Assembly: GCA_001771135.1 (NCBI GenBank) | Contig: MESW01000003.1 | Coordinates: 8,719 to 72,718 of the forward strand | From: a candidate division CPR3 bacterium GWF2_35_18 | GTDB taxonomy: Bacteria > Patescibacteriota > CPR3 > GWF2-35-18 | Direction: 5' to 3' | DNA length: 64,000 nucleotides | Shown here: piece by piece, positions 26,806 through 43,389 of the stretch | How positions within the stretch are numbered: position 1 is the first letter of the stretch | How the letters are laid out: each line of letters starts with the position of its first letter | The notes under the pieces: model-generated | Databases searched by the model: none | The model's input: only the letters and a program-made list of their open reading frames with translations | What the model was told of the DNA's origin: nothing | Program-made: the position numbers and the translations under genes

Positions 26806-27095
26806 CGATTATAAATCCTTTGGAATCTGAAGTATTAAAAATCAGCAAAGACAAAAGTCTTTGAACCCGACTAAAATTTACTCCATCAGATTCCTTTGGA
26901 TGAGGGTTACCTCTTGCTGTTATCCTCGGGCGGGATATAACTCTATTAATGTAGAGCTTGAAAAAAACAATTCCAGATTCCCTTTTTGTGGGAACCTCCA
27001 GAGAACCTGGAATTGTTTGGTTTGCCGTGGGCGCCTTCAGTTCCCTTACGGCGGGGATGTCAGTTTTCCTTTAGGAGGAGTAAGGAAACACTGTT

Positions 27096-27560
27096 TTATT
27101 CTTCATCATCAATGACGAACGGGTGGCAATTGCCACAACGGTCGCAGAGGTTGGTCTCTGGATTTCTCAACACACGGTGCGGTGACAGAAAGTTCTTACA
27201 ACCATACGTGGTGCAGCGACCCCAACGGCCGGTTTCCATTCGAGCAAAGATGTCCAGAACTCCTTTGACATAGGCTTGATCGTGATCCAGTAGAGCAGCT
27301 TGACGTTGGAACTCAGCAGTAGCGCTTGCCAGATCGAGGTCGTCAGGACAACACTCTACAACCGTGTCAGGGGCTGGTTTTTGCCAGTTTTTGAAGCCGT
27401 TGGCTTTCGTGGTCAGATGCTTCAAAGCATACGGCAATAACACTGGAACCCATTGTTCAGGTTTGAGCTGTTGTAGGATCACATCGGCTCGACTAGGGAC
27501 GCTTTTCGGATCAGCCTTTTCCAGCAAGGCTTCCAATTCGTGAATCAAATCAGTAATCAC
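27096..27560 (-). CDS. Island hypothetical protein with C-terminal Cys-rich (zinc-ribbon-like) tail
   Basis: 154 aa, GC-rich codons; C-terminus CTTYGC…CDRCGNCH. Confidence 0.5.
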   Translation of the reverse strand: MITDLIHELEALLEKADPKSVPSRADVILQQLKPEQWVPVLLPYALKHLTTKANGFKNWQKPAPDTVVECCPDDLDLASATAEFQRQAALLDHDQAYVKGVLDIFARMETGRWGRCTTYGCKNFLSPHRVLRNPETNLCDRCGNCHPFVIDDEE

Positions 27561-27682
27561 AGGTTATACTCCTAAGTTGAATGTTCCCGGGCGTGGCGCC
27601 TCGAGAGGAGGGCCGACACACACCGGGTGGATTGATGGAACAAAATGTTCGGTGTGCAAAACTTTATGTTGTCGGTAACCTC

Positions 27683-28162
27683 CTATTGATCAAAATCGTA
27701 ACCGGGAAATTCGGCGGAGTTCAACACTTTAACCCCATGATACATGCGTCCAAGCTCCATGAAACCGATCTGCAAGGGTTCTAGAGAACCTAATCCAGGT
27801 TTCAGCGCGTACTGCCAATCGCAGACTGAGGGAAAACGTACTGCTCCATGCCACATACATGGACTCCACGCTGAAAGCTGTGGACAAGTGATGTCAGGTT
27901 CGGCTTTTGGGCAGAAAGAGCAACCCAACTGGTGCCAGCGGAGAGCATAAGCCTGGTAGAGGTCTTTGTCAGAGGGGTTGTTCACCCATAACATTACCAT
28001 CGGCCAAGTAATTACGCCGCTGGAAAAGCCAGGGATGGCTTTCACGACTTTGAGCAGTTCTGGGGTTGTAACCTGATCGAACCAACGTGGATCGACAAAT
28101 TGAGCTGCTCGCAGATCAAAGCCCAGAAGCGGTTCATGGTTGATAATAAGGAGTTGACTCAC
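27683..28162 (-). CDS. Island hypothetical Cys/Trp-rich protein
   Basis: 159 aa; GTG start preceded by AGGAGG; multiple Cys (CSFCP, CPQLSAWSPCMWHG, CDW). Confidence 0.5.
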   Translation of the reverse strand: MSQLLIINHEPLLGFDLRAAQFVDPRWFDQVTTPELLKVVKAIPGFSSGVITWPMVMLWVNNPSDKDLYQAYALRWHQLGCSFCPKAEPDITCPQLSAWSPCMWHGAVRFPSVCDWQYALKPGLGSLEPLQIGFMELGRMYHGVKVLNSAEFPGYDFDQ

Positions 28163-28174
28163 GGATACCTCCTA

Positions 28175-28411
28175 TTAATTTACCACGGCAAGAACCGGAA
28201 TGGATTGCTGAAGGGTGATCAAATACTGGCGACCGGTATTGGTAATGCGAACAATACGGTTTTCGTCGATAGTGATATAGCCAGCATTTTTCAGGTAACC
28301 CAGATTCGTGGATTTGTTAATGACACGTTGACGAACCTGAATACCTTCTTCTCCTGCAGTTTGAAGGTTTTCCAGAATCTTGCCAATGGGGGTAGAGCAG
28401 ATAATGTACAT
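28175..28411 (-). CDS. Island small hypothetical protein
   Basis: 78 aa; AAGGAG RBS 6 nt upstream; first gene of a 3-gene minus-strand operon. Confidence 0.45.
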   Translation of the reverse strand: MYIICSTPIGKILENLQTAGEEGIQVRQRVINKSTNLGYLKNAGYITIDENRIVRITNTGRQYLITLQQSIPVLAVVN

Positions 28412-28652
28412 GGTTCTCCTTAGAACGAAAATAAGCTGATTGTTATTGGAGTCTATTACGACTTTTTGAAGGACTTGGAGACGTCAATCGGTTCTCCGAA
28501 TGACGTTATGAAATAGGACAGAAAAGTTCCACGGTCTCCTCCTTTCGAATTGACCCGCGATTGGGGAAAGCGGGTTAAAAATGATCATATCGGCTTTTTA
28601 GCCGGGATGATTACAAGTGATAAATTATGAGGTGCAAAAAATATTAGGTAGT

Positions 28653-28709
28653 TCTTCGACTACGTTCAGAAACTAAATATTTGCTGAGTGCAATCGAAGC
28701 ATTACCTAT
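28653..28709. repeat. 57-bp repeat copy 1 (TCTTCGACTACGTTCA-N14-GCTGAGTGCAATCGAAGCATTACCTAT), 3' of csp-like gene
   Basis: Identical 16-nt and 27-nt blocks shared with 29931-29987; CTTCGA/TCGAAG arms can pair. Confidence 0.8.
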
Positions 28710-28942
28710 AAATCCGCCTTCGGCGAGATTGATAAACTCTAAGTTCATTCTTTACTAAGATTTCATCAAAAGAAAAAGCAGGGCTAGTAATAAGTATGAG
28801 AATTATATATGAAAAATAATAAATTCGCTATTTTTACTAGCCCTTTTTGTCTCTCTCTTTCTCTTTGTGGTAAAAAACCACAGATAATTGCGTGTACGCA
28901 TCAACCTGACGGTCGGTGCGTACGTGGTGGAGACAGATTCCC

Positions 28943-29650
28943 CTAATCCCCCTTTTGATCCTCCTGGAATTGAGCAACAACTTTTGGTTCGAATTCAACG
29001 CCTACGTCCAAGCCGCCAGCATAGTACTTACGGGCGCGTGCCAGATCGCCTTGATTCAAAGCAAGGTTTACAAAGAACGGGATATACAAGCACATGGCTT
29101 GCATGTTCAACTTTTCCCATTCCTCGCCTTTGCCCTTGCGAGCTTTTTTCTTCCGTACATCCTTGAGATTTTCCGCATTTACCTCAGTAGGATTTGCCTC
29201 AAAATCGGCAATAGCTTGACGTAAAACTTCCAAACTATATTCAGGTGATGCTGTCGGGATGGAACTTGATACTTTTGGTGTCAAGGATTGGCGTGGAGCT
29301 GCAGGAGGTTCAACCAAGTGTGAGCGATATGGTTGATCGTAAGATTGAATCGGCGTCCGAGTTGGCGTGCGTACCTGTTGATACTGATCTTGATGATTTG
29401 GTTCAGGATCGAAGCAACGTTGTCCTTTTGGTGGTTGACCAACAAGCGTTGCAGAAACAACCTGTTTTTGACCAAACTTTTTGGGGTTTGGACCAATAGT
29501 AACGTTATCAAGATACAATTCACGCAAGTTAGCTCCATACTCTGGTTGGTTTGTTAACGCAGTTACGTGAAAATACAAGCCATCTTGAAAATCCGGATGT
29601 TCAATAAAACCAAACCCTTTTCCCGGAAAGAAAACATATATCCTATACAT
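28943..29650 (-). CDS. Cold-shock-domain protein with long low-complexity C-terminal extension
   Basis: 235 aa; N-terminal GKGFGFIEHP…GLYFHVTAL CSD/RNP1-like motifs (~70 aa), then Pro/Gln/Lys-rich tail. Confidence 0.75.
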   Translation of the reverse strand: MYRIYVFFPGKGFGFIEHPDFQDGLYFHVTALTNQPEYGANLRELYLDNVTIGPNPKKFGQKQVVSATLVGQPPKGQRCFDPEPNHQDQYQQVRTPTRTPIQSYDQPYRSHLVEPPAAPRQSLTPKVSSSIPTASPEYSLEVLRQAIADFEANPTEVNAENLKDVRKKKARKGKGEEWEKLNMQAMCLYIPFFVNLALNQGDLARARKYYAGGLDVGVEFEPKVVAQFQEDQKGD

Positions 29651-29930
29651 AGTCTGTCTCCAAATGTGTAATGTGTGATATTCATGTGGCTAAATTTTAA
29701 CGATGGGTCATTAAACGACCTGAAAAGATAAGAATTCTAAAGGTTGTTTGAGATAGGAATCCTCCTTGAATTTGAACTTGTTCTCCAGTCAGCTTTTGCC
29801 GAGCGGAGTTTGGTAAAACCTTTTCCACTTTTGTGGTCAAGGGAAGAGAAAACAGGAAAAAAGTTATTAATTCCTATCCTCTATTCCCTTGAACACTAGA
29901 TTTAAGGTGCTAGTTATATATAAAGGTAAA

Positions 29931-29987
29931 TCTTCGACTACGTTCATATGATAATTAATTGCTGAGTGCAATCGAAGCATTACCTAT
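29931..29987. repeat. 57-bp repeat copy 2, 5' of csp-like gene
   Basis: See copy 1; loose similarity extends about 25 bp further upstream (AGGTGC…AGGTA…). Confidence 0.8.
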
Positions 29988-30002
29988 TTTTAAAAAGAGA
30001 CG

Positions 30003-30061
30003 GAGGCAGAAAGCTAAAAACACGATAATAAAAATATTTGTGTTTTGGAAGCTTTCTGCCT
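30003..30061 (-). terminator. Compound long hairpin (13-bp outer stem GAGGCAGAAAGCT/AGCTTTCTGCCTC, inner AAAACAC/GTGTTTT) followed by T-run on minus strand
   Basis: Inverted repeats read directly; T5 follows on minus strand about 85 nt after stop of 30149..30433; T-rich tract also follows on plus strand (bidirectional). Confidence 0.6.
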
Positions 30062-30148
30062 CAGATTGTCTCTCTCTTTTCTTTTTCCAGCATAAGCTGG
30101 AGATGATTGCTTCAGAAGGAGTGCGATGCACCCCTCCTGAAATAGATT

Positions 30149-30433
30149 TTAGTGGAATCTGCATCCATAATCGCCGTTGTGCATTTGACGACGCAGGTTG
30201 ATATGTCCACCTTTTTGGACCAAACCCAGGTATAGGACTGGGATACGAAAATCTCCGTCTGAGGGGATTACTTCTTCGTAATCACGTTTATCCTCTTGGA
30301 GTATTACCGCTCCCTGTAATCCTTTGACCCGGATTCGGTAGAACGTCCACGCTATCCAGTAGAACTCTCGAGTTACCTCGGCGAGCCAGTGGATTTTGTG
30401 AACTAATTCCTCGATACGTGTGGGGTGCATCAT
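30149..30433 (-). CDS. Island hypothetical protein
   Basis: 94 aa; AAAGGAGAAC RBS. Confidence 0.45.
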   Translation of the reverse strand: MMHPTRIEELVHKIHWLAEVTREFYWIAWTFYRIRVKGLQGAVILQEDKRDYEEVIPSDGDFRIPVLYLGLVQKGGHINLRRQMHNGDYGCRFH

Positions 30434-30507
30434 ACCCGTTCTCCTTTCGAAAAGATTTTGTGCTGCAATGTGAGCTCTTTGTTATACGGGTGATGATGTA
30501 GAAGTGA

Positions 30508-30849
30508 TTAACTACAGCGCTGCTCTTTTAAAAGCAGGTAGCGCATGATCGCGCCATGGTAGCAAACAAGAGGGCAGTGTGTGCAGCCGATCTCATCCCA
30601 TGGCCAATTGCCATCGTCCAAATTAATCTGGTAATCAGATATTCCTACGATTTCAACCAAATGGACACCCCAAACATCCAAGAGAACTGCGAAATCAGGA
30701 TGCAGAGATGAACCAAATTGGTTGATGATGTAACTCATGCTGGCTGCGATTTGCATAGGAAGAGCCTCTTTAAACAGTTCCGGGTCCACGAAAAATTGCA
30801 CTCCATTGATGCGGAGCATGACCGTGGGTGGTTGTGGATTTGCGCTCAT
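30508..30849 (-). CDS. Island hypothetical protein (start at MSANPQ, ATGA overlap with upstream gene)
   Basis: ~113 aa; translational coupling overlap with 30846..32105. Confidence 0.45.
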   Translation of the reverse strand: MSANPQPPTVMLRINGVQFFVDPELFKEALPMQIAASMSYIINQFGSSLHPDFAVLLDVWGVHLVEIVGISDYQINLDDGNWPWDEIGCTHCPLVCYHGAIMRYLLLKEQRCS

Positions 30850-32105
30850 GGCTGTACCTGTCTTACTCGAAGACCAGTGTCCCGATCCCACAGATTGGGC
30901 GGATTGTGAACAATCTGCCAGAGATCAACCATATTAGCTCCTGCGAGAACTTGAGCTTTTAGTGCATCTGCTGATATTTTTTCCAGTGAAGCAGCACGAG
31001 CGATGAATTCATCAAACAGGGTGGATACGTCTTCTTCTCTACTTGCTTCAGCACCCCAGCCTTGTTCTTCAGTGATTCGGGTGACATCATAGATGATTCG
31101 GTTAAGTGAATAAGCCATGCCGGCCTTTTCATCTTTGACATCCTGGGTGAGTTTTGCCAGTTGACGAATGATTTGCAGCAGCAAATTAGCCTGGTAGACA
31201 AAGTCCTTTCGGTCAAAACCACCGTATTCCTTGACCGGGAAAAACATCTGCCCAATGCCCAATCCGCTCCAGTTTAGGAGGAACCCATCCCAATACCTTT
31301 CCAATCCTGTACCAGGAGTCTTCCCACCAGGTTCGCCAGGAGATGAAATCTTAGTCTGACCGAAATCAGTCGGGCTAGCGATAGAGATGAACAGCATCCC
31401 TTCGGGCGCGGTGACTTTGACAAAGATGATCTGTTTGCGATACCAGATCATGACGTCATGGGTGCGATTCCACTCGCCGATGAAAAAGGCCTTGACGACC
31501 GGAAATAGGCACCACAACAGTGAGATAGCCATTCCAGCCAGGATACCCAGAAGCAATGGTTGCCAGACGACATTGATGTAACCAGATAGCAACCATTCTG
31601 TTAAGGTTCCATTCATCAGAGCATTGTAGGCAGGGAGCAAGGTTAGTCCCACTGCGACTATTAAGCCTCCGGTGAAGCCCAGAAAAAGAACCCAATACGC
31701 CTGACGGAGACCTTTACCGATGGCTTTGAACATGTCTTCGATGACGATAGTAATGTCTTCGAATATGACGATCTGGCATCTATCATCTTTCTCGAACCAC
31801 CACTGGATAGGGTTTTCGTACATGGTGTCCATCCAGCGGAATACCGGACTGAAGATCGCGACCGTGAAGACATAGAAACGGCGGATGGCCATGAATGATG
31901 TTCGGACGACCTCCTTCAAAAAATTGACCAACCGAGTTGGACCAATGAAGAACAGGATCAACATTGGTGATGAGATGATGAGAAGGGCCAAAAGCCCCCA
32001 TAATAACCAACCTTTGGTTGTAAAAACCAGAAGAGTGGCGCCGGCGAGGAGATAGAGAATCCAGGCGGCTAGGATAGATCGGAAATCAAGTTTGAAAATA
32101 CTCAT
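30846..32105 (-). CDS. Island polytopic membrane protein with cytoplasmic C-terminal domain (start at MSIFKLDF)
   Basis: ~419 aa; GAAAGGAGACCCC RBS before MSIFK; N-terminal half with several TM helices. Confidence 0.55.
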   Translation of the reverse strand: MSIFKLDFRSILAAWILYLLAGATLLVFTTKGWLLWGLLALLIISSPMLILFFIGPTRLVNFLKEVVRTSFMAIRRFYVFTVAIFSPVFRWMDTMYENPIQWWFEKDDRCQIVIFEDITIVIEDMFKAIGKGLRQAYWVLFLGFTGGLIVAVGLTLLPAYNALMNGTLTEWLLSGYINVVWQPLLLGILAGMAISLLWCLFPVVKAFFIGEWNRTHDVMIWYRKQIIFVKVTAPEGMLFISIASPTDFGQTKISSPGEPGGKTPGTGLERYWDGFLLNWSGLGIGQMFFPVKEYGGFDRKDFVYQANLLLQIIRQLAKLTQDVKDEKAGMAYSLNRIIYDVTRITEEQGWGAEASREEDVSTLFDEFIARAASLEKISADALKAQVLAGANMVDLWQIVHNPPNLWDRDTGLRVRQVQP

Positions 32106-32418
32106 GGGGTCTCCTTTCAACAAGATACTCCTTTCGAAATTGGTGGAGAGGGCCATTTGGCGCACTCCATGGAAAAACAACCCGCATTTTACGGGGACCA
32201 AACAGAATTAAGCTGCACATCGTGCAGGTTAAAAAAGAAATATTTAGTTTTAATGTACTTATAATTTTCTCTTCTAATTTCTAGAATTAAAGATTATTAA
32301 TCCCAGGAATCAGAAGAGAGGGTGGGTGACGATACAGTAATGTATGTCATGAAGGCAGCCACCCTCGTCTCTCTCCTGATGTTTGTATCACCGCGCGTAA
32401 GCAGGGTGAAGATTGATG

Positions 32419-32787
32419 TTACTTGATTTCTTGGACTTCGGCTTCCACGACTTCTTCTTCATAGCCAAGAGGCTCAGAATCAGATTGTTGGACACCGATG
32501 TCGGCGCGAGCTAAATCCAGAAACCATTGGGATCCAAAATACAAGACGATCACGTCGTCAAAGGGTCCAAAGAAGATATCCACTGGTACGATCACGTAAA
32601 GAATCGTGCCTATGAAGATCAGTTTGTGCCGAAAGAGCACCTTGGGGTGACGAAAGAGCATCCAGACCTCTTTCGCATTGGCGACAATGTCGGCAATAAG
32701 ATCCTTACGATTCTGTTCAGGCAGGCGACGGAGTCGCGCTCGTCCGGACGGAGAAGGTTGTGGATTTGCAGGAGGTGTTTTCTTCAT
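32419..32787 (-). CDS. DUF1232 (YkvA-like) small membrane protein
   Basis: 122 aa; YVIVPVDIFFGPFDDVIVL resembles DUF1232 signature (…SPIDLIPDFIP..G.LDD…). Confidence 0.5.
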   Translation of the reverse strand: MKKTPPANPQPSPSGRARLRRLPEQNRKDLIADIVANAKEVWMLFRHPKVLFRHKLIFIGTILYVIVPVDIFFGPFDDVIVLYFGSQWFLDLARADIGVQQSDSEPLGYEEEVVEAEVQEIK

Positions 32788-33545
32788 GGTTGTACCGTGA
32801 CCAATTCCGTGCGGATGTAGCAGGTCTGCCCTTCGGCGGTCGTAATCTGGTAAAGAGCATTGGAGCCATTCCAGGAGACCGGGGCGGTTGCTTCTCCGAT
32901 TATGATGATCACATCGCCAGTTGAAAGCTTGATGATCGAGGTCTGCCAGGTGCTTTCGTTCAAATCAGTATGGCAGTTGACGCCGTCATCATCCTGGAAG
33001 GTCACAGTGCCTTGGCGGTTCGCCGGAGTTGCAGTTGGAGCAGGTGTTGGAGTGTTTTGCGGAACTGCAGTTGCCTGGTTCATCACAACCTGGGTCGGAT
33101 TGGCAGTTGGTATAGTCGGACGGTCAATGCTCAGAATCAGTTCAATCCGGATGTAGCAGATTTGGCCGGTTTGATTAACCTTGACCCTGTACAGGTTGTT
33201 GGAGCTATTCTGCCAGGAAACAGGGGCTGTTCCGAATCCAATTACTTCGAGTTCTGTCCCATTTGGCAGAGAGATGATCTGGCTGGGTGTTGACCAAGTT
33301 GCTTCATCAGTGTTCAAATGGCATTGAACAGATCCAGAGCCATCGGTGGCGGCGACTTTTAGCCATTTCGCGGTGTTCCAGGGAGTAACCGTAGCCGCAA
33401 CGCGAACCGGGTCGATACTTCCGCCTAAAGTAATGGTCCTGCATAAACCGCAAAAACAAGCAACACAGATTATGGGAATGAGCAGGATCCAAAGCCAGGG
33501 GCGGCGTTTGCGATTTTGAGCGATTGAGGAAGTTGAAGTTGTCAT
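32784..33545 (-). CDS. Membrane-anchored protein with two tandem ~65-aa Cys-containing beta-rich repeats (SH3b-like?)
   Basis: 253 aa; N-terminal TM; repeats GSVQCHLN…APVSWQNS…CYIRIEL and GVNCHTDL…APVSWNGS…CYIRTEL separated by Pro/Thr linker. Confidence 0.55.
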   Translation of the reverse strand: MTTSTSSIAQNRKRRPWLWILLIPIICVACFCGLCRTITLGGSIDPVRVAATVTPWNTAKWLKVAATDGSGSVQCHLNTDEATWSTPSQIISLPNGTELEVIGFGTAPVSWQNSSNNLYRVKVNQTGQICYIRIELILSIDRPTIPTANPTQVVMNQATAVPQNTPTPAPTATPANRQGTVTFQDDDGVNCHTDLNESTWQTSIIKLSTGDVIIIIGEATAPVSWNGSNALYQITTAEGQTCYIRTELVTVQP

Positions 33546-33554
33546 AGCAATCTC

Positions 33555-34052
33555 CTATTGCTGAATATTTTGCACTTGCACAAGCTCCTGCCGGAGGTAG
33601 CAAGTTTGATTTTGGCCATCAAGTCTGACGAGGTATACATCTTTTGATCCATTCCAGATAGTGGGTGCAATATCTTCACCCAAAATCGTTACCGTCGTTC
33701 CAACATTCAACCTGACGATTGTGTTCGGATCAGTCCAGGTTTCATATGCCAGAGTGAGGTGGCATTGTACCGATCCGGAAGGATCATTGTAGGTGATGGT
33801 TCCCACAGTAATTACTACTGGGGTTGTGGTATCAGGAATAGCTGGAGTGACATTTTCTCCTTTTGATACCATTGGTAGAAAAACATAATTATAGTTGCCC
33901 AGACGCGCCGGGATAAAATCACCGTAGTACTCCGAGGTATCTGGGTTTACGTTTTGAGGTGTCGAAGACAGCGCCTGTAAACCAATCCAGGCAACGAACA
34001 CCAACAAAATGCCGATGATAAGATGCGGAATTCCAATTCTTGAAATCTTCAT
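33555..34052 (-). CDS. Membrane-anchored protein with one copy of the same SH3b-like repeat (paralogue of 32784..33545)
   Basis: 165 aa; N-terminal TM; SVQCHLTL…APTIWNGS…CYLRQEL. Confidence 0.55.
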   Translation of the reverse strand: MKISRIGIPHLIIGILLVFVAWIGLQALSSTPQNVNPDTSEYYGDFIPARLGNYNYVFLPMVSKGENVTPAIPDTTTPVVITVGTITYNDPSGSVQCHLTLAYETWTDPNTIVRLNVGTTVTILGEDIAPTIWNGSKDVYLVRLDGQNQTCYLRQELVQVQNIQQ

Positions 34053-34212
34053 GCCTTTAACCTCCGATAGAGCCTCCTGATTGGATGATGCTGGGGGGAA
34101 TTTTTCCGCCCAGTTTGATTTAAAGACCGATTTTGGTCTTTAACGATAACAAGAATAAAAAAAGGGATAATAGCAAATCCGTCAGCATAAGCTGGCGGAT
34201 TAATAGGTTGGA

Positions 34213-36204
34213 TCAGGAAGATCCGTTTGATCCGTACAGCTTGGAAGGCGAAGTTTTACCATCCTTGAGTTGATCATATGCAGATTCAGGAGTGATTCCA
34301 GCTTCAACTAACTTTTCCGCGACTTTACGGGTGAAGCTTTTTCCGCCTTCGGTAACCAGGCGCTCCGAAACTGCGAGCATAGCTACGACAGGATTATCAG
34401 TAGCAACTTGAACTAGCTCTGACGGCTCAATGCTCATCATTCTCAACGCCTTAAGCATCGTTGGAATAACATCATCTTTACCCTGTAGTGCTTGGGCCGC
34501 TTGAAGAAGTTGATCTACCGGCGAGATGGTTCCCACTCTTTGCTGGATTAAAACGAAAGCTCGTTGACGTGAGTCTGGTTGTAAAGAAGCAAAAAGCTGC
34601 TCCAGAACTTGTTCAGGAACTGGGATTCCGGCCGTGCGCCACATAGCGAAGGTTGCCGCAGCTTTGTTAGGAACCGAACGTAGTTTCGCACCGGCTTCGG
34701 TAGCGATGAGACGATAGGCTTCTTCAACTTCACGATGAGCCCATTCTTCATCCTCGACTTTCCAGGCCGTTCTGATGGCTCCTTCTTCAAAAGGAATCGT
34801 GAGCAAAAACTGACGCAGATAAGCGAGGATTGCTTTGTGGGCATCAAATCCCTTTTCGCCGGCAGCAGCACGTTCCATTCTAACCGCAAAGTCAGTATGA
34901 ATTTGCAGTCGATCAGGAGATAGCATATCTTCTAACTCGCGAGTACCGGTTTCGGTCATGTCAATCCACGGACGCGGGGTGGTCGGATTCTTCTCCGTGT
35001 AATGCATGATCAGAGAAGTTGCAGTTGGTTTCCCGATTTCATGGGCCACAGTGCCCGATGAAGTTTTCTCACCTTCGTAAAGGCTTGTTACAATCGGTGT
35101 CAAGGAACCACCTCCTGGCACTGAGCCGAAGAAGAGATAGTTATTGACAACCCAACTCAAAGCACCGGTCGGAATACCTGATCCTGCGAAGCCCTCACCG
35201 GCGATAGATTTGATTTGTCCCAATCCTTTAACAAGGCCAATGGCCGAGTCCAGGAAATAGAACACATCATAGCCTTCCGTAACGAAAGTCTGGGCGACCG
35301 ATCTTGACAGTTCAGCGTTGAGAAGAATTGTAGCTGGTGTTGCTCCAGTGAAGAAGAACGTATTAAGATGTGGATATTTAGCCAAACCAGCCGCCATTTT
35401 CCGGGCATCCCCTACTCTTTCACCAACGCTTAGGCAAATGATCACCGTGTTGTCTTTTTTGAGACCCAGTTCTTGATCGGTACAAGCCAAGACAGCATCG
35501 AGATAGGCACGCGCCGTCCAGGTTTTACCTGATTTCGATGGACCAAGGATTAGGCTGAGAGCACCGATACCGAAAGGCGCTTTGGCGCGGAGAATCTTCA
35601 TGGTCACATTGCCATTGACTGTTGACTCAAGCTCTCTGACCGAGTGCGCCAGCTTGCGTTGGCCGACGAGATGCTTCATGAAACTGGGTCTCATAGTTTT
35701 CTGAACACGTCCATTAACTGCCAGGATGACAATCAGGTTTCCTTGCAAGGTATACTTCACGATGTCACCCATACGAATATCCCATGTTTCAAGGACTTTG
35801 GTATCTAATATAGGAACTCTTCGCATGAATTCTTTCTTGTCTTCAGTCGTGAGTAGAAGCTCGCCTGCAGGAACCAGAAGATACGTGTTTTTTTCTACGA
35901 AACAGAAACGTTCAACAGCCAAGATCCTACCAGAAGCTGGATCAATCCAGACTACTTCGTTGACACTGAGTCCCCAACGAGTAACTTCCGCGTCGGAGAG
36001 AGGAATTCCAGACTTCGCCGTTCGTTCTTTGAGAGCAAGAACTTCAGCTTTTTTTTGATCATCAGGCTTGTCGGAGATATGAATTTCGTCTTCCTGAATA
36101 AGATAATTTCCATTCATCTGCGGAGTGATAGCATAGAATGGATTTTGACGCGCATGGTAATTCGCGTCATGAATTGAAAAAACAAAACGTTTCTCCATTT
36201 TCAC
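34213..36204 (-). CDS. rho: Divergent Rho-family transcription termination factor/RecA-like hexameric ATPase with ~190-aa C-terminal extension
   Basis: 663 aa; OB/CSD-like segment (WDIRMGDIVKYTL…IVILAVNG cf. Rho FNLRTGDTIEGKI…LKVEAVNG); Walker A LILGPSKSGKT; FLDSAIGL; GGGSLTPIVTSL (cf. Rho EGGSLTIIATAL); PWIDMTETGTRELEDML (cf. PAIDYNRSGTRKEELL). Confidence 0.7.
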   Translation of the reverse strand: MKMEKRFVFSIHDANYHARQNPFYAITPQMNGNYLIQEDEIHISDKPDDQKKAEVLALKERTAKSGIPLSDAEVTRWGLSVNEVVWIDPASGRILAVERFCFVEKNTYLLVPAGELLLTTEDKKEFMRRVPILDTKVLETWDIRMGDIVKYTLQGNLIVILAVNGRVQKTMRPSFMKHLVGQRKLAHSVRELESTVNGNVTMKILRAKAPFGIGALSLILGPSKSGKTWTARAYLDAVLACTDQELGLKKDNTVIICLSVGERVGDARKMAAGLAKYPHLNTFFFTGATPATILLNAELSRSVAQTFVTEGYDVFYFLDSAIGLVKGLGQIKSIAGEGFAGSGIPTGALSWVVNNYLFFGSVPGGGSLTPIVTSLYEGEKTSSGTVAHEIGKPTATSLIMHYTEKNPTTPRPWIDMTETGTRELEDMLSPDRLQIHTDFAVRMERAAAGEKGFDAHKAILAYLRQFLLTIPFEEGAIRTAWKVEDEEWAHREVEEAYRLIATEAGAKLRSVPNKAAATFAMWRTAGIPVPEQVLEQLFASLQPDSRQRAFVLIQQRVGTISPVDQLLQAAQALQGKDDVIPTMLKALRMMSIEPSELVQVATDNPVVAMLAVSERLVTEGGKSFTRKVAEKLVEAGITPESAYDQLKDGKTSPSKLYGSNGSS

Positions 36205-36535
36205 CTTTCCTTTCTTGAAAAAATCCGCAACCGCTTCGGAGTAAAGGGATTGCTTCTGAAATACAAATTAACCCGATTAACCGGGATAATTAACAAAGTA
36301 TTGTTCTTTCAAATTTAAATTTGAAAAGAAGATTTTCTAAGCAATAACTTAGAAAGATTCATTTTTTAGGTGCAAAAGAGTTTTTTAAAAGTATTTTTTA
36401 GATAACTCTTTGTTTACGCTCAGAGATTGAAGCTGAAAGCAAACAAAGTATTATCTAAGTTATAAAGTGAGAGAGGATAGTCCTAAATGAGAGGTTTCAA
36501 GGCGGATGCCAAGAAAAATTCATAAAGGACTATCC

Positions 36536-37969
36536 TTATGGTGTAGTCTCGTTGTTCTCCTCTCCCACTGTTTGAAAGGTGATCATGTTCGGATTATCCG
36601 ATACAGTCACCCATTGACCAATTATAGTGTAGTTCGTTGTGTTTTTGATAATCAAATCCATACCGCCACTAGCTCCAGCATGAGATTCACCACCGGTGCA
36701 GTTAATTGCCACCGTAAAAAATGATGAGCCACCGCTATGAGCTGGTGAGTTCAGGATTTGAAGACCTGGAGTATGTTGTGCCCAGGAATCAATGAAAGTG
36801 GCGTTGGCACAAAGTCCACCGGCGTTGATACCTGCCGCGTAAACATAACCTGACCAACCCGTCTCATTGACAGAAGCGCAAAAACTCCATTGTTGGCCAG
36901 CGGCGATTCGAACGGTTGAAACGTTATGAGTGTAAATCATGAAGTTTCCCGACTGACCATCGTGCGGAATGTTTCCAGATCGAATATCCACACTGATGAT
37001 TTCGCCCGAAGCGGTGCCAGTTGATGGCAGAGAGGATCTCTGCGTATCCAAACTTCGATAGAGATCATTGGGCAGAAGCCCAAAGAAGTTCATAACTGAC
37101 GCAAAAGTGCGTAGAGTATCACCGTCGAGATTGGTATCTCCAAAGGTGAGACCGGATACAATGCGTGAGTTATAAACCTCAGACAGATTGACCATCGCAT
37201 CAACATCGGCGATAAGTTGAACTCGATAGCTTTCGCTTTGATTCCAACCTCGCAGTTCTTGAATGCGTTGTTCAACAGAATGGTCTGACCGGTAACCGAT
37301 AGCGTAAACATACCAGGCTGTAGCATGCCAGCGAACGCGATCATTCCAGAAGTTACAGGTCATGAGAACCGGATCACCGGAGGGAATAAGGCCTTTTTCG
37401 CAGACTAGCTTTGCGGTTGAGGCGATAAATCCACCCGGAAGTTCACCAGTCGAAGCATGTCCTGTATAACCTGTATAACCATCGTAGATGTGACCATCGG
37501 TCACATTGTTTTCTTTCCAATGGTTAAGAAGCCAGGTTTGGGCTGCAACTTCCACGGCACAGTTAACATTCGGGTTTGAGCATGCCGCAGTTTTTGCGTC
37601 GTAAGCGGCAGAACGACCCTCATGTTGATCAAGTATAATGTACACACCTGGATCTCCAGCAGATGCTTCAATAGTGTTACTAATCCAGAGACTAGCTTCG
37701 ATGGAACCAGCGACATCCACAGGGTTTAAACCTTGAGCCGTTAATTGCTCTTCTTGAGCCTCCGTGAGGACAGGGTATCCGGACATGTCAATGTCCAGTA
37801 GCTCAGATACCGCTGTATCCCAAGTCCGGGGGATCATGGACTGCACTTGCCAAGCCGCCACTAGGGCAGCAAAGAAAATACAGCCCATGATTATCACCCC
37901 GCAGACCAGGAAAAAGGCAAAACGGCCTAGACGTTTTTCGAAGAACTTTCTCGACCGTTTTTTGCTCAT
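36536..37969 (-). CDS. Secreted/membrane-anchored protein of unknown function, immediately downstream of VirB4-like gene
   Basis: ~478 aa from MSKKRSRKFF (AGGGAGG RBS); N-terminal TM/signal; many Cys, Gly/Ser/Thr-rich. Confidence 0.55.
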   Translation of the reverse strand: MSKKRSRKFFEKRLGRFAFFLVCGVIIMGCIFFAALVAAWQVQSMIPRTWDTAVSELLDIDMSGYPVLTEAQEEQLTAQGLNPVDVAGSIEASLWISNTIEASAGDPGVYIILDQHEGRSAAYDAKTAACSNPNVNCAVEVAAQTWLLNHWKENNVTDGHIYDGYTGYTGHASTGELPGGFIASTAKLVCEKGLIPSGDPVLMTCNFWNDRVRWHATAWYVYAIGYRSDHSVEQRIQELRGWNQSESYRVQLIADVDAMVNLSEVYNSRIVSGLTFGDTNLDGDTLRTFASVMNFFGLLPNDLYRSLDTQRSSLPSTGTASGEIISVDIRSGNIPHDGQSGNFMIYTHNVSTVRIAAGQQWSFCASVNETGWSGYVYAAGINAGGLCANATFIDSWAQHTPGLQILNSPAHSGGSSFFTVAINCTGGESHAGASGGMDLIIKNTTNYTIIGQWVTVSDNPNMITFQTVGEENNETTP

Positions 37970-37983
37970 GTAGGCCTCCCTTG

Positions 37984-40329
37984 TTAGTTTGGCACACCGA
38001 GCAAGTCCAACAGACTGCGTTCGAGATGAGGATTGAACCAACCGCGCCATCCTGGAGGTGGACCCATTCTTTTCTTTGCTTCTTCAGGACCTTCTACCCC
38101 ATCCAACTGTTGTTCCATTGATTCATAACCAGAAGGGGGTTTTACTTCCCAAAGATTTGAGAGGGTTACATTTGGAGGGTAAAACACTTCGGCCAGCCGG
38201 TGCTTGCGATTCGGTTCATTACTGAAGACTAAGGCAACAGGGAAATCGTTTAAGATTGCCTGACCAAAGTTCTCCACGATGCTGGCGAAGCTGTGGAATA
38301 TACCGAAGAAACCGGTATTGTACTTCCGACAGGTGTTCATCACGATACTGAAGGATCGGCGAAAGTTTTTTGTTACCACTGGAGCTTGATCTCCAATGAC
38401 GGAATCTCGCTCAGCTTCTGACGCCGCAACCATATCGTCCACGATGACAACCATCTCTTCACCTAAATCGCAGGCCAGCTTTCCGACTGCTGGAATCGTG
38501 ATTTCCTGAATTAGTCTCAGGTATTCCAGATAGACAAACTGATTTCCCGATTCTCTGCGAATCACCCAAGGAAAGCCTAAAATCCGACCATTCTTTTTGA
38601 TTTGCTGCACCAATATTTCGGTGCTGGCCATAACTTCTTTCCGAAGCTGAACTGCCATTTGATTGAACTGCTCAGGGCTTTCGGGATTACCGAAGGTGTA
38701 GATCGGTGCTTGGCCTCCAAGCTTAATCGCCAACTCGCTGGTCCACGGTTCTTGGGTATCTGAAACATGCAGAACGATAACGTTCCTCGTTCGCATGTAG
38801 GCTGATATGACTGCCATTACCGTTTTCCCCGAACCTGATGGGCCTAAGAATAACGCCGATGGGGTTTTGTCCCATGAGACGAGACGATGAGTTACCGGAT
38901 GACGACCGAGTGGCCAGGCTCCGCCAGAAACGCCCACAGCTTCGGTGCTGTCCGCAACGACCTTGAGCATTTCACTCCACTTCCGGACGGCGAAGCGTTT
39001 TGCTTGATAAGCAGTTACAGGAGTCGCCATTAGATTGAGGAACCAATCCCAGACCTTTCCCGTCATTCGGAAGAACCGATTGTTTGAGTATTGACGTTGA
39101 ATAGGAGTGGTTCCAATCTTCCAAGGCGATCCAGGAATCATACTATACAGTGTTCTGCGAAGATAATCCGGATCTTGGTTTTCGACACCCATCACGCGTT
39201 CGTGGCGAGAAGGCAGACTATTTTCTGTCTGAGTTAGATCTATTTCCGTACCTGCCGCCATGACCAAAACCGATGTCCAGATTTCCGGACTAGAGAGGTT
39301 CTCTTGCTCGATACAAACATGAACATCGAGAGAGAAAAGCACCTCCCATTCCTCTTTTGTCGCCGGATACACTCGCCAAAGGGCAACGTGTTTGTCGCCA
39401 TGAGTATAATCGGCTTCATGAAAACGAAGATCTGGCAAAGCTCCGAGAATTGGCTTTGGCATGGGATTGTCACCATGGGTTGTTGACCCTGAAGTGAGGA
39501 ATGCATATGCCAGATTTGCCCATTGTGATGGGTTTAAAGGTGTAGCTCCCGCTAATGCGGTAGTCGCCATTTTGGGATTGAAACAGTGATTAGCCAGTCC
39601 GGTCATGACAAGCATTCGTCCACGATCATTTGCACCAGCCGCATAATACCGTTCTAGCTCCTGGTGAAGATTTACCCAGAGAGCATTTCCTGGCATCTGC
39701 CGTGTGGCGGTTGTGATTAACTGATGAAACGCTCTATTGTCGTGTGGAACACTCATTGAAATCATTTTCCACCACATTGGATTGACTCCGCGACCAGATG
39801 GATCGAGTAAATGGTCAGCAAGCATCGGTGGCGTTTGATGAACACCAACGACCATTGATCGACCATCATTTACCGAATTTGAATCAATCGGTATCAGAAT
39901 GGCAACAGGACCATTAACACCTACCGGAGTATAAGACTGCACTTTAAAGCCATAAAGCGCTTCCGCTTCAGCCACAAGATCTTCAATGGGCATTGGCGCG
40001 AACGGCATGCTAGCGTGTAGAATTTGGGTCAAAGCCGGGTGGCCGCGACCTTTGATCGTTATTGTGGCTGGAACTGGTCCTTGCGCAGTAACGTGGCGTT
40101 TTCCTTCTCGACCTGGAATTTGAGATTTACCGATGGTTTGGCCAATCACAACAGTTTCCAGACCTAAACGTAGAGAAGCTTTGAAGAAAGGAGTGTCGCT
40201 TTTGATAGTAAGCAATCCAGCTTGACGAAGTTCAAAATGATTATATCCGTTCGGACTCATTACCCGAACATCTGCCAACACCGATGGTGGTGGCAATTGA
40301 AAGAGGGAGGGTAAGTTTGTATTTTTCAT
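37984..40329 (-). CDS. VirB4/TraC/TrbE-family conjugation/secretion ATPase-like protein
   Basis: 781 aa; Walker A LFLGPSGSGKT in C-terminal half; Walker B MVVIVDDMVAASEAE; RKYNTGFFGIFHS resembles VirB4 motif (…RKfN…ATQS); size as VirB4. Confidence 0.65.
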   Translation of the reverse strand: MKNTNLPSLFQLPPPSVLADVRVMSPNGYNHFELRQAGLLTIKSDTPFFKASLRLGLETVVIGQTIGKSQIPGREGKRHVTAQGPVPATITIKGRGHPALTQILHASMPFAPMPIEDLVAEAEALYGFKVQSYTPVGVNGPVAILIPIDSNSVNDGRSMVVGVHQTPPMLADHLLDPSGRGVNPMWWKMISMSVPHDNRAFHQLITTATRQMPGNALWVNLHQELERYYAAGANDRGRMLVMTGLANHCFNPKMATTALAGATPLNPSQWANLAYAFLTSGSTTHGDNPMPKPILGALPDLRFHEADYTHGDKHVALWRVYPATKEEWEVLFSLDVHVCIEQENLSSPEIWTSVLVMAAGTEIDLTQTENSLPSRHERVMGVENQDPDYLRRTLYSMIPGSPWKIGTTPIQRQYSNNRFFRMTGKVWDWFLNLMATPVTAYQAKRFAVRKWSEMLKVVADSTEAVGVSGGAWPLGRHPVTHRLVSWDKTPSALFLGPSGSGKTVMAVISAYMRTRNVIVLHVSDTQEPWTSELAIKLGGQAPIYTFGNPESPEQFNQMAVQLRKEVMASTEILVQQIKKNGRILGFPWVIRRESGNQFVYLEYLRLIQEITIPAVGKLACDLGEEMVVIVDDMVAASEAERDSVIGDQAPVVTKNFRRSFSIVMNTCRKYNTGFFGIFHSFASIVENFGQAILNDFPVALVFSNEPNRKHRLAEVFYPPNVTLSNLWEVKPPSGYESMEQQLDGVEGPEEAKKRMGPPPGWRGWFNPHLERSLLDLLGVPN

Positions 40330-40520
40330 GCCTTTCTCCTTGCGGAATGGGACCGGGGGCGGAACAGCGCCCGGCTATTACAAAACTCGCTTTTGTAAGC
40401 GAGATAACCAACATATTTATTTTTATTTGCTTTTTTAAATGTGCCTGTCTCTTCCTCCTTTTAGACTCTTTGATTAATAAGAATTATTTCCAGAATACAA
40501 AGAATCAAAAGGAGAGAGAG

Positions 40521-40567
40521 GAATGATCCGTACAACGAGTGTTGTGCGTCCGTTATACGGATCATTC
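40521..40567. repeat. 12-bp-arm perfect palindrome GAATGATCCGTA-N23-TACGGATCATTC
   Basis: Inverted repeat read directly; lies between VirB3-like and VirB4-like genes; loop carries smaller hairpins. Confidence 0.8.
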
Positions 40568-40596
40568 TTTATTGTAGTCTCGTTGTTCCTCTCTTT

Positions 40597-42344: not shown

Positions 42345-42361
42345 AGTCGTGCTCCTTAGCG

Positions 42362-43211: not shown

Positions 43212-43257
43212 GGGAGTCGCCTGACGGCGGACTTCAAGCCAAGCGGCTCCCTTTTTT
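43212..43257 (+). terminator. Orphan plus-strand intrinsic terminator (GC-rich hairpin + T6) in island intergenic region
   Basis: AGGGAGTCGCC…GGCGGA…GCGGCTCCC hairpin followed by TTTTTT; no plus-strand CDS upstream. Confidence 0.45.
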
Positions 43258-43389
43258 GGAATTGTGTGGAGCGCGCAGGCGGATGGCAGTTAGCCTATGA
43301 AATTTGGATCAAGGGTACGAATACCCAAGACCTCAGGTATGTTTGTTAAACATGTGGTTGAAGGTTTTTCTCCTTGAACGAAAAGTGAA

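What the first reader, a model, noticed from the sequence alone, without database searches (positions are those of the whole stretch)
28630..29990. Cold-shock-domain protein with long disordered tail, bracketed by ~57-80-bp direct repeats
The csp-like gene (28943..29650) has a canonical CSD (KGFGFI, VFVHF-type) followed by ~160 aa of P/Q/K/E-rich low complexity. Two copies of a repeat lie at 28653-28709 and 29931-29987. They share identical 16-nt and 27-nt blocks, can form a CTTCGA/TCGAAG hairpin, and show looser upstream similarity. One copy is 3' of the gene and one is 5', about 1.3 kb apart. This could be a regulatory RNA element (e.g. a cold-shock 5'UTR-like switch on one side), a REP/MITE-like element, or the ends of a small mobile cassette.
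Basis: seen in the sequence. Interest (0 to 1): 0.6.

Follow-up and report, generated by a model that had tools for sequence, protein, structure and literature searches.

The report
Three-copy intergenic RNA hairpin module
The two repeats around the cold-shock-like gene are real, but they belong to a three-copy family of ~64-base hairpins lying ahead of three regulator-type gene units in a foreign DNA island of a CPR3 bacterium, so they are more likely RNA control signals than the ends of a mobile cassette.

Summary
The 64-nt direct repeat (28646-28709 and 29924-29987) is real: 56/64 bases are identical, and shuffled sequence never gave the 27-mer. It is not a pair. A covariance model built from the two copies finds a diverged third copy at 36398-36460, 6.4 kb away beside unrelated genes. 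All three copies lie in intergenic regions of a 47%-GC island inside a 33%-GC CPR3 genome, on the gene (minus) strand. Each folds into a 21-24 bp hairpin with a variable loop. The third copy keeps the helix through three double compensatory changes, and G-U pairs make the sense strand the better RNA fold. Each hairpin is followed 8-24 nt later by (T/A)TGCACCT. Each sits 193-273 nt upstream of a unit encoding a nucleic-acid or transcription-type protein: a distant Rho homologue, the CSD-like protein, and a possible wHTH protein with a DksA/TraR-like protein. Best reading: a cis-acting RNA hairpin module in long structured leaders, serving as a processing site or factor-binding site. Cassette ends, attC, REP/MITE and terminator readings fit less well. 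The "CSD" is divergent (Pfam 18.4 bits, below the cut-off of 27), and its tail is a linker plus a helical domain. No relatives were found elsewhere. Interest is modest.

The parts
28646..28709 (-). Hairpin copy c1 (64 nt). It lies 233 nt after the CSD-like gene stop and 234 nt before the start of the 78-aa gene.
   Evidence: RNA fold on the minus strand is -25.3 kcal/mol, z -6.4. CM R2 scores 93.3 bits.
29924..29987 (-). Hairpin copy c2 (64 nt). It lies 161 nt after the stop of the 94-aa ORF and 273 nt before the CSD-like gene start.
   Evidence: RNA fold is -22.3 kcal/mol, z -5.4. CM R2 scores 88.4 bits.
36398..36460 (-). Hairpin copy c3, diverged, with a near-continuous 24-bp helix. It lies 75 nt after the stop of the 504-aa ORF and 193 nt before the Rho-like gene start.
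   Evidence: Found by CM R1, which was built from c1 and c2 only: 45.5 bits, E 4.5e-8. RNA fold is -24.1 kcal/mol, z -6.6. Three double compensatory changes.
28630..28637 (-). TTGCACCT box, 8 nt downstream of c1.
   Evidence: Exact TTGCACCT occurs only twice in the window, both times just after a hairpin copy.
29905..29912 (-). TAGCACCT box, 11 nt downstream of c2.
36368..36375 (-). TTGCACCT box, 24 nt downstream of c3.
28943..29650 (-). 235-aa protein: a divergent N-terminal cold-shock-like domain (about residues 1-71), a P/Q-rich linker, and a predicted helical C-terminal domain. It is an orphan sequence.
   Evidence: Its GC3 of 0.364 is the lowest in the island.
34213..36204 (-). 663-aa distant Rho homologue; the gene downstream of c3.
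   Evidence: NCBIfam Rho models give E 7e-11 to 7e-9, far below their cut-offs. All top PDB hits are Rho (7oqh, E 5e-10) and align through the P-loop, GGSLT and TGTR motifs.
28175..28411 (-). 78-aa possible winged-helix protein; the first gene downstream of c1. It is followed by a 159-aa ORF and the 154-aa DksA/TraR-like ORF (27096-27560).
   Evidence: Pfam Mrr_N E 0.002 and a PHROG 'transcriptional regulator' family E 0.006. DksA-like and yteA models give E 2e-4 to 4e-3. The homologue in L016 carries a weak zf-dskA_traR hit.
28770..28862 (-). Terminator-like long hairpin (AGGGCTAGTAA...TTACTAGCCCT plus a U tract) with an (AG)n/(CU)n base, upstream of c1.
   Evidence: (I7, D4).
29993..30079 (-). 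Terminator-like long hairpin (GAGGCAGAAAGC...GCTTTCTGCCTC plus a U tract) with an (AG)n/(CU)n base, upstream of c2.
   Evidence: (I1, D4).
36474..36536 (-). Long-range hairpin (AGGATAGTCCT...AGGACTATCCT) directly after the stop of the 504-aa ORF, upstream of c3.

Best explanation
The repeats are members of a small family of cis-acting RNA hairpins with three copies in this window. They are transcribed with the genes, on the minus strand. Each module is a 21-24 bp helix with two conserved mismatch positions and a free apical loop, followed 8-24 nt later by a single-stranded UUGCACCU box. Each module sits at the head of a 190-270 nt hairpin-rich leader, just downstream of the previous gene's terminator-like hairpin. 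The three modules precede three units: a Rho-like ATPase, the CSD-like protein, and the wHTH/159-aa/DksA-like genes. SHOWN: the three copies, their shared orientation and intergenic position, the conserved helix with compensatory changes, the sense-strand bias under RNA energy parameters, the associated box, and restriction to the GC-rich island. INFERRED: the RNA helix plus box is recognised by a trans-acting factor that sets the fate of the transcript entering the leader, and so co-regulates the three units. The most likely concrete form is a double-strand-specific processing or stability site. RNase III-type cleavage of a leader or intercistronic helix of about 22 bp would uncouple the downstream mRNA from the upstream one. 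Binding by an island RNA-binding protein (the Rho-like or the CSD-like one) that controls premature termination in the leader is almost as likely. The CSD-like gene is simply one of the regulated genes; the repeats do not delimit it.
For: The third copy was found with a model built only from c1 and c2 (45.5 bits, E 4.5e-8). There are exactly three hits in the 64-kb window with filters off, all in the island, all intergenic and all on the gene strand. None occurs in about 15 kb of extra host DNA. Of 21 modelled pairs, 95% of cells are paired, against 30-44% when the partner column is slid. Three pairs show double compensatory changes (G-C to A-U, C-G to U-A, A-U to U-A) and one shows U-G to U-A. 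Every stem substitution in c3 keeps pairing. All 8 differences between c1 and c2 fall in the apical loop or an internal loop. As RNA the minus strand folds at -25.3, -22.3 and -24.1 kcal/mol (z -6.4, -5.4, -6.6). The plus strand folds at -20.6, -14.7 and -19.2 because G-U pairs become A-C mismatches. With DNA parameters the folds are weak (-8.6 to -11.9) and show no strand bias. Exact TTGCACCT occurs only twice in the window, both times just after a hairpin, and a one-mismatch version follows the third hairpin. Flanks outside hairpin and box do not align, so the module is conserved against a diverged background. The downstream genes are a Rho homologue, a CSD-like protein and wHTH and DksA-like proteins. 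All island intergenic regions are unusually structured (z -4.3 to -11) compared with host ones (z -2.2 to +0.15).
Against: No expression data exist, so transcription through the hairpins is assumed. c1 and c2 lie directly after strong terminator-like hairpins, and no convincing sigma-70 promoter was found upstream of them, so how much RNA reaches them is unknown. Covariation rests on a single diverged copy: 23 of 500 shuffles reach the observed score. No relatives were found in other genomes, so there is no phylogenetic support. No consistent pairing partner exists for the box. Neither RNase III cleavage nor protein binding can be tested here. The functional assignments of the 78-aa and 154-aa proteins are weak.
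Confidence: 0.55

Rival explanations
1. Selfish palindromic repeat (REP/MITE/PATE-like). In this reading a short hairpin element copied itself into intergenic sites of the island and has no dedicated regulatory role.
For: The element has sharp boundaries within otherwise unalignable intergenic DNA. It has terminal inverted repeats (TAGGTA...TACCTA), multiple same-sequence copies, and a GTAG motif inside the 3' arm. Possible degenerate relics lie near 43050-43110 and 44340-44410.
Against: There are only three copies, all in the 18-kb island and none in about 60 kb of host DNA. No transposase or RAYT-type gene was detected in the island. All copies share the gene orientation and a similar distance to the next start codon. 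A separate box at variable spacing is also conserved. c1 and c2 differ in 8 loop positions while their stems are identical, which points to selection rather than recent copying. c3 keeps the helix through compensatory changes.
Confidence: 0.14
2. A DNA-level element. This could be an operator or promoter-associated palindrome, or a single-stranded-DNA hairpin such as an ssi or Frpo-type priming or promoter signal of a conjugative element, used when the island is single-stranded.
For: The hairpins sit in promoter-plausible positions between a terminator and the next gene. TTGCAC resembles a -35 hexamer, and c1 has TGTAAT 16 nt downstream of it (read from the sequence). One island protein has a faint match to a T4SS coupling protein (E 0.003). 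Patescibacteria are known to carry chromosomal T4SS clusters (PMC12102498).
Against: Arms complementary over 21-24 bp, and compensatory changes within a single genome, are not expected for a protein operator. No conserved -10 follows TTGCAC in c2 or c3, and the consensus promoter scan finds nothing there. With DNA parameters the hairpins are weak and show no strand preference. Frpo-type hairpins need about 30 bp or more of duplex to hold both promoter hexamers and form on the template strand, whereas here the better strand is the sense strand (own knowledge).
Confidence: 0.12
3. Ends or recombination sites of a small mobile gene cassette carrying the CSD-like gene. Candidates are integron attC-like sites, IS200/IS605-like subterminal hairpins, or attL/attR.
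For: Direct repeats bracket one gene at 1278-bp spacing. Each repeat folds like an attC bottom strand, with a lower stem, an unpaired spacer, a stem and a variable loop. The CSD gene has the lowest GC3 in the island, 0.364 against 0.43-0.68.
Against: A third copy stands alone next to unrelated genes. The AAC/GTT triplets that define attC R boxes are not conserved among the copies (read from the alignment). No integrase, TnpA or TnpB was found. The repeats lie 161-233 nt from the preceding stop codons, with terminator-like hairpins in between. All of the roughly 20 contigs carry both repeats and the gene.
Confidence: 0.07
4. Extra intrinsic terminators or insulators between transcription units.
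For: The hairpins are stable and lie in intergenic regions. c1 is followed by AAUAUUUUUU. Island intergenic regions are full of terminator-like hairpins.
Against: c3 is followed by an A tract and c2 by UUAUAUAUAA, so no U tract is conserved. The base of the stem is A/U-rich. Each copy already follows a better terminator. The conserved box at variable distance is left unexplained.
Confidence: 0.07

Closest known systems
RNase III processing hairpins in phage T7 polycistronic mRNAs, and in bacterial leaders such as rnc, pnp and lambda N (own knowledge)
   Same: Several sequence-related hairpins of about 50-65 nt. Each has about two helical turns of dsRNA interrupted by small internal loops. They lie between genes or in leaders of a mobile element, in the sense orientation, and have variable apical parts.
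   Different: Cleavage is untested here. Here the hairpins follow terminator-like structures, whereas T7 early sites lie within uninterrupted polycistronic RNA. A conserved single-stranded box follows each copy. There are only three copies, and no relatives were found outside this lineage.
Processive antitermination sites: lambda nut and rrn boxB-boxA, and HK022 put (own knowledge)
   Same: A hairpin plus a short conserved linear box, present in a few copies per element, placed ahead of regions that contain terminators. The element also encodes transcription-elongation-type proteins (Rho-like, CSD-like, DksA-like).
   Different: The box UUGCACCUnAnAA matches the rrn boxA consensus at only about 8 of 14 positions (my own alignment by eye). 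The hairpin is far longer than boxB. No N/Q-like or Nus-related partner was identified. No promoter was located upstream of the modules.
Repeated intergenic palindromes transcribed into mRNA (Neisseria Correia/nemis elements, ERIC, REP/BIME) (own knowledge)
   Same: Short imperfect palindromes in intergenic DNA that fold as RNA hairpins and can change the stability or processing of neighbouring mRNAs.
   Different: Those families have tens to hundreds of copies across the chromosome in both orientations. Here there are three copies, one orientation, island-only location, and an extra conserved box.
Integron attC sites
   Same: Direct-orientation imperfect palindromes flanking a gene, with conserved stems and a variable central loop.
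   Different: The conserved AAC/GTT core triplets are missing, no integron integrase is present, the hairpins are not adjacent to ORF ends, and one copy is not part of any array.
cspA 5'UTR thermosensor or cold box
   Same: A long structured leader ahead of a cold-shock-domain gene.
   Different: No Rfam match. The same module also precedes non-CSD genes. The protein is a 235-aa multi-part orphan, not a 70-aa Csp.

Membership tests
Cold-shock domain (Pfam PF00313) | Profile HMM score at or above the gathering threshold (27 bits) | tested here: not met
   18.4 bits, E 0.0021, residues 10-35 only. NCBIfam and PHROGs gave no hit.
Cold-shock domain (Pfam PF00313) | RNP1 (K/R-G-F-G-F-I) and RNP2 (V-F-V-H-F) motifs on adjacent strands | tested here: inconclusive
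   KGFGFI is present at residues 11-16. The RNP2 position reads LYFHV. Residues 7-71 align to whole CSD repeats of P0002 at 35% identity, pairwise E 3e-7. All six non-self hits among 1.84 billion representatives are CSD proteins.
Cold-shock domain (Pfam PF00313) | Five-stranded OB-fold beta barrel | tested here: inconclusive
   The single-sequence AlphaFold model has mean pLDDT 40.5. Beta strands are predicted across residues 2-70, but the model is not reliable.
Integron attC site | Conserved R''/R' boxes with AAC...GTT triplets at the base of the hairpin | tested here: not met
   In the alignment of the three copies, AAC is present only in c1 (in an internal loop) and GTT only in c3. Neither is conserved in position.
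Integron attC site | Integron integrase nearby, and attC directly after each cassette ORF | tested here: not met
   No recombinase domain was found in the island ORFs that were scanned. The hairpins lie 75-233 nt after stop codons.
REP/MITE-type dispersed repeat | Many copies scattered through the host chromosome, usually in both orientations | tested here: not met
   CM R2 with filters off finds 3 copies, all in the island and all on the minus strand. It finds none in about 45 kb of host DNA in the window or about 15 kb beyond it. The rest of the genome was not available.
REP/MITE-type dispersed repeat | Cognate transposase (RAYT or DDE) and target-site duplications | tested here: inconclusive
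   No transposase was found in the window's island ORFs. The flanks are A/T-rich with no clear duplication.
Intrinsic terminator | G+C-rich stem immediately followed by a U tract | tested here: not met
   The stem base is A/U-rich. The tails are AAUAUUUUUU (c1), UUAUAUAUAA (c2) and AAAAAAUACUUUU (c3). The terminator scan did not flag them.
RNase III substrate hairpin | About 20 bp or more of near-continuous dsRNA helix | tested here: met
   Predicted helices of 21-24 bp with 1x1 to 3x3 internal loops.
RNase III substrate hairpin | Cleavage by RNase III, and presence of rnc in the host | not testable with these tools
   There are no RNA-end data and the whole host genome is not available.
nut / rrn-type antitermination site | boxA consensus (UGCUCUUUAACAA or CGCUCUUA) next to a short boxB hairpin, downstream of a promoter | tested here: inconclusive
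   The box UUGCACCUnAnAA matches at only about 8 of 14 positions by eye. No promoter was found upstream. The hairpin is four times longer than boxB.
Any Rfam family (including the cspA thermoregulator) | Covariance-model score at the gathering threshold | tested here: not met
   Only tRNAs pass the gathering threshold in the window. At E up to 5 the region gives only sub-threshold matches, mostly to miRNA-precursor hairpin models, 14-28 bits against cut-offs of 40-184.
ssDNA promoter or priming signal (Frpo/ssi) | A long ssDNA hairpin holding -35 and -10 hexamers on the template strand | tested here: not met
   The helix is only 21-24 bp. DNA-parameter folds are -8.6 to -11.9 kcal/mol with no strand bias. 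The better-pairing strand is the sense strand.

The most novel reading that the evidence does not exclude
The hairpin plus UUGCACCU modules are recognition sites of an element-borne system that controls transcription elongation and termination. In this reading, a foreign island in a CPR bacterium carries its own Rho-like helicase, a CSD-type RNA chaperone and a DksA/TraR-like RNA polymerase binder. It uses a nut/put-like RNA signal in three leaders to decide read-through of its many intergenic terminators, and so autoregulates exactly those factor genes.
Probability: 0.12. Interest if true: 0.7.

Novelty: new member of a known kind. Interest (0 to 1): 0.38.

Why it matters
Almost nothing is known about gene regulation in Candidate Phyla Radiation bacteria or in their mobile DNA. 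This is a compact, testable case. A conserved RNA helix plus box is repeated ahead of three units that encode a Rho homologue, a cold-shock-like protein and a DksA-like protein. The island that holds them has intergenic regions far more structured than those of its host. If the module is a processing or anti-/termination signal, it would give a first handle on post-initiation control in this group. It would also give a function to several orphan proteins. If it is only a lineage-specific hairpin repeat, it is an ordinary feature of a poorly known element.

Tried and rejected
- **Search for copies or relatives elsewhere.** The exact 24-mer and a degenerate stem pattern gave nothing in viral contigs. 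blastn of the region against phages and of c1 against plasmids gave nothing.
- **Stem pattern in reference genomes.** One hit, inside a coding region of a high-GC genome, judged chance.
- **Stem pattern in metagenomes.** Four hits. L012 and L014 are unstructured and look like coding sequence. L013 (upstream of rpsA) and L015 (between ftsQ and ftsA) are perfect hairpins, but they lack the lower stem and the box and sit in unrelated organisms. I treat them as probable chance matches among natural hairpins.
- **Comparative route through proteins.** The CSD-like protein has no relative beyond itself in the word-indexed search. The 159-aa and 78-aa neighbours have one diverged relative (71% and 87% identity) on a 1323-nt contig that starts 15 nt upstream of the 78-aa gene, so no intergenic sequence is available. 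The Rho-like and 451-aa proteins have no relatives in viral contigs.
- **Population variation.** About 20 contigs are essentially identical, with no SNP in any hairpin and no deletion variant.
- **Promoters.** The consensus scan found none near the modules. Hand-picked -10/-35 candidates were not conserved across the copies.
- **Pairing partner for the box.** None is consistent across the three units.
- **Other elements.** A DGR template/variable repeat pair, a retron and IS200/IS605 ends were rejected, because no reverse transcriptase or TnpA/TnpB is present and both repeats are intergenic.
- **Defence systems.** PADLOC gave nothing.
Full report
**Observation.** The repeat is real. The repeat finder reports one 64-nt family at 28646-28709 and 29924-29987 with 56/64 identical bases. 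It is by far the longest direct repeat in the region and in the whole island. Outside the 64 nt the two intergenic regions do not align. The exceptions are an AAAGAGAGAGACAA motif next to a terminator-like hairpin on the upstream side (in the direction of transcription) and a GCACCT box on the downstream side. The ORF at 28943-29650 (-) is present and is called identically in more than 20 public assemblies.

**Setting.** The window comes from a candidate division CPR3 bacterium; NCBI names the protein as coming from GWF2_35_18. The host DNA is about 33% G+C and carries uvrA, uvrC, uvrB, many tRNA genes and cell-wall genes. From about 26.8 to 44.1 kb, between a tRNA cluster next to uvrA and uvrB, the G+C content rises to about 47%. 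Every ORF in this stretch lies on the minus strand, and almost none has a family match. Every contig that carries the same uvrB also carries the island. Both repeats lie inside this island.

**A third copy.** I built a covariance model from the two copies only. With filters off over the whole window, it found a diverged third copy at 36398-36460 on the minus strand (45.5 bits, E 4.5e-8). This copy lies in the intergenic region between a 504-aa ORF and a 663-aa ORF. A model built from all three copies still finds exactly three in the window. It finds none in about 15 kb of additional host sequence fetched beyond both window ends. The repeats are therefore not a bracket around the csp-like gene. 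They form a small dispersed family confined to the island, as far as the available sequence shows.

**Structure and strand.** On the minus strand, which is the gene strand, the copies fold as RNA into a single long hairpin:
- a lower stem of 5-9 bp;
- a small internal loop with a conserved purine-A mismatch;
- a 10-bp middle stem containing G-U pairs;
- a second small internal loop;
- a 3-5 bp upper stem;
- an apical loop of 9-16 nt (5 nt where copy 1 forms an extra 4-bp stem).

The fold energies and z-scores from shuffles are below.

| Copy | Minus strand, kcal/mol (z) | Plus strand, kcal/mol |
|---|---|---|
| c1 | -25.3 (-6.4) | -20.6 |
| c2 | -22.3 (-5.4) | -14.7 |
| c3 | -24.1 (-6.6) | -19.2 |

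The plus strand folds less well because the G-U pairs become A-C mismatches. With DNA parameters all six folds are weak (-8.6 to -11.9 kcal/mol), and the strand difference disappears.

All eight differences between copies 1 and 2 lie in the apical loop or an internal loop. Copy 3 differs from them at seven stem positions, and every one preserves pairing. There are three double compensatory changes (G-C to A-U, C-G to U-A, A-U to U-A) and one U-G to U-A change. In that count, 95% of cells pair, against 30-44% when partners are slid by 1-3 columns. With only three sequences the shuffle control is modest: 23 of 500 shuffles reach the observed value.

**The box.** Each hairpin is followed after 8, 11 or 24 nt by TTGCACCT (TAGCACCT after copy 2) and then by an A-rich stretch. 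Exact TTGCACCT occurs only twice in the window, both times in this position. I found no consistent pairing partner for it.

**Position.** Each hairpin lies after a terminator-like hairpin that closes the previous gene. Those upstream of copies 1 and 2 have G+C-rich stems, U tracts and an (AG)n/(CU)n base. Each hairpin is 234, 273 or 193 nt upstream of the next start codon, at the head of a leader that contains further hairpins. All island intergenic regions are unusually structured (z -4.3 to -11) compared with host intergenic regions (z -2.2 to +0.15). Dinucleotide-shuffle z-scores for the three regions holding a hairpin copy are -8.4, -13.0 and -7.4.

**The genes behind the three modules.**
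- Copy 3 precedes a 663-aa protein that is a distant Rho homologue. NCBIfam Rho models give E 7e-11 to 7e-9, far below their family cut-offs. The top eleven PDB sequence hits are all Rho chains (best 7oqh, E 5e-10). The alignment runs from the region before the ATPase through the P-loop, GGSLT and TGTR motifs.
- Copy 2 precedes the CSD-like protein.
- Copy 1 precedes a 78-aa protein with weak winged-helix and 'transcriptional regulator' matches, then a 159-aa ORF, then a 154-aa protein with weak DksA/TraR-family matches.

The other island intergenic regions precede membrane, lipoprotein-like or unassigned proteins and lack the module.

**The CSD-like protein.** Pfam CSD scores 18.4 bits against a cut-off of 27 and covers residues 10-35 only. 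However, a HMMER scan of 1.84 billion representative proteins returns only six non-self hits, and all six are multi-CSD proteins. Residues 7-71 align to a complete CSD at 35% identity. The single-sequence structure model is unreliable (pLDDT 40.5). It predicts strands in residues 2-70, no regular structure in 71-135 and helices in 137-230. The C-terminal part has no detectable relative. This is a divergent cold-shock-like domain with a linker and a helical domain. It is not a canonical Csp with a 160-aa low-complexity tail. Its GC3 of 0.364 is the lowest in the island, so it may be a later addition.

**Interpretation.** Several features point the same way:
- arms complementary over more than 20 bp;
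- compensatory changes within one genome;
- G-U pairs on the sense strand only;
- a fixed orientation and fixed placement relative to genes;
- conservation against unalignable flanks.

Together they favour a cis-acting RNA hairpin module over a protein operator, a recombination site or a selfish repeat. Copies 1 and 2 have identical stems despite near-saturated loop divergence. That argues for sequence-specific recognition as well as structure. I therefore favour a factor-recognised RNA signal.

The most concrete candidate is an RNase III-type processing or stability site. The helix length and the interrupted-helix design match known phage and leader substrates (own knowledge). Nearly as likely is a binding site for an island RNA-binding protein that governs termination in the hairpin-rich leaders. 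These mechanistic steps are inferred, not shown.

The main weakness is that copies 1 and 2 follow strong terminators, and no promoter could be placed upstream of them. Transcription through them therefore remains an assumption.

**Alternatives.**
- Cassette ends or attC: the third, solitary copy argues against this. So do the non-conserved AAC/GTT triplets, the absence of any recombinase, the distance from ORF ends, and the lack of any deletion variant.
- REP/MITE: disfavoured by copy number and distribution, but not excluded without the whole genome.
- Terminator: no conserved U tract.
- ssDNA promoter or priming signal: the helix is too short and the favoured strand is the wrong one.
- cspA-type thermosensor: no Rfam match, and the module is not specific to the csp-like gene.

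**Breadth.** I could not find the family elsewhere. Two metagenomic hairpins share the middle-stem sequence. L013, upstream of rpsA, shares a 16-nt run; L015 lies between ftsQ and ftsA. Both lack the lower stem and the box and come from unrelated genomes. Given the size of the collection and the abundance of natural hairpins, I treat them as probable coincidences. The one diverged relative of the island is a 1.3-kb contig that ends 15 nt before the relevant intergenic region.

**Verdict.** The element is a lineage-restricted, three-copy RNA-hairpin-plus-box module ahead of regulator-type genes in a foreign island. It is a new member of a known kind of feature. Interest is modest, raised somewhat by its association with a Rho homologue, a CSD-like protein and a DksA-like protein in a CPR genome.

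Noticed in passing
window 26807-44142 (G+C shift from about 26000 to about 44500): A 47%-G+C island sits in a 33%-G+C CPR3 chromosome, between a tRNA-Val/Met/Arg cluster next to uvrA and uvrB. All of its ORFs are on the minus strand and nearly all lack family matches. No integrase or flanking att repeat was found.
   Followed up: partly
window 34213-36204 (-): The 663-aa island protein is a distant homologue of transcription termination factor Rho. All top PDB hits are Rho, and the P-loop, GGSLT and TGTR motifs align. It scores far below the curated family cut-offs and is about 240 aa longer than typical Rho.
   Followed up: partly
window 27096-27560 (-): This 154-aa protein has a C-terminal four-cysteine motif and weak DksA/TraR-family matches. 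Its homologue in L016 also carries a weak zf-dskA_traR hit.
   Followed up: partly
island intergenic regions, e.g. 28770-28862, 29993-30079, 32330-32390, 40519-40600: All island intergenic regions are far more structured than host ones (z -4.3 to -11 against -2.2 to +0.15). Several terminator-like hairpins share an (AG)n...(CU)n base, including the 14-nt TTGTCTCTCTCTTT repeat at 28847-28860 and 30066-30079.
   Followed up: partly
L016 (SRR22388160 contig, 1323 nt): This is the only diverged relative of the island found. It carries homologues of the 78-aa (87% identity), 159-aa (71%) and DksA-like genes, and the intergenic region between the last two is 83% identical to the window. The contig starts 15 nt upstream of the 78-aa gene, so the hairpin region is missing.
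   Followed up: yes
L013 503-540 (-); L015 8850-8915 (-): Two unrelated metagenomic contigs carry perfect hairpins with the same middle-stem sequence (CUUCGAUUGCA...CGUAGUCGAAG). One lies about 85 nt upstream of an S1 (rpsA) gene in a 67%-G+C contig and shares a 16-nt run with the window copies. The other lies between ftsQ and ftsA. They are probably coincidental, but this was not resolved.
   Followed up: partly
window about 43683-43806: Five independent assemblies (L022-L026) end within about 120 bp of each other inside the 250-aa ORF near the uvrB-side edge of the island. This suggests a strain-variable junction or a coverage change there.
   Followed up: no
L008 2021-2781 and window 28387-28406; L005 1-277: One short contig joins the island just after the start of the 159-aa gene (about window 28154) to an unrelated membrane-protein gene and lacks 20 nt at the start of the 78-aa gene. 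Another contig has 277 nt that match nothing in the window. These are likely assembly chimeras or variants.
   Followed up: partly
window 28506-28532 (-): The leader below hairpin c1 holds a strong Shine-Dalgarno-like AAAGGAGGAG followed by GTG and an 8-codon ORF (MELFCPIS). A similar AAGGAGGA with no ORF lies in the leader below c2. TCGAAAGGAG recurs at two real ribosome-binding sites in the island.
   Followed up: no
window 43050-43110 (-) and 44340-44410 (-): Both stretches look like degenerate fragments of the hairpin family. The first contains TTTGTTTGCTTAAAGC, similar to the c3 5' arm. The second contains GAAGTACCTAATAATTTG, similar to the c1 3' end. Neither is reported by the covariance model at E up to 10.
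   Followed up: partly
window 44817-44846 (-): This is the best sigma-70-like promoter in the island scan (TTGACA, 18 nt, TAGAGT with an upstream TG). It lies in the host-like A/T-rich spacer just after uvrB and points into the island.
   Followed up: no
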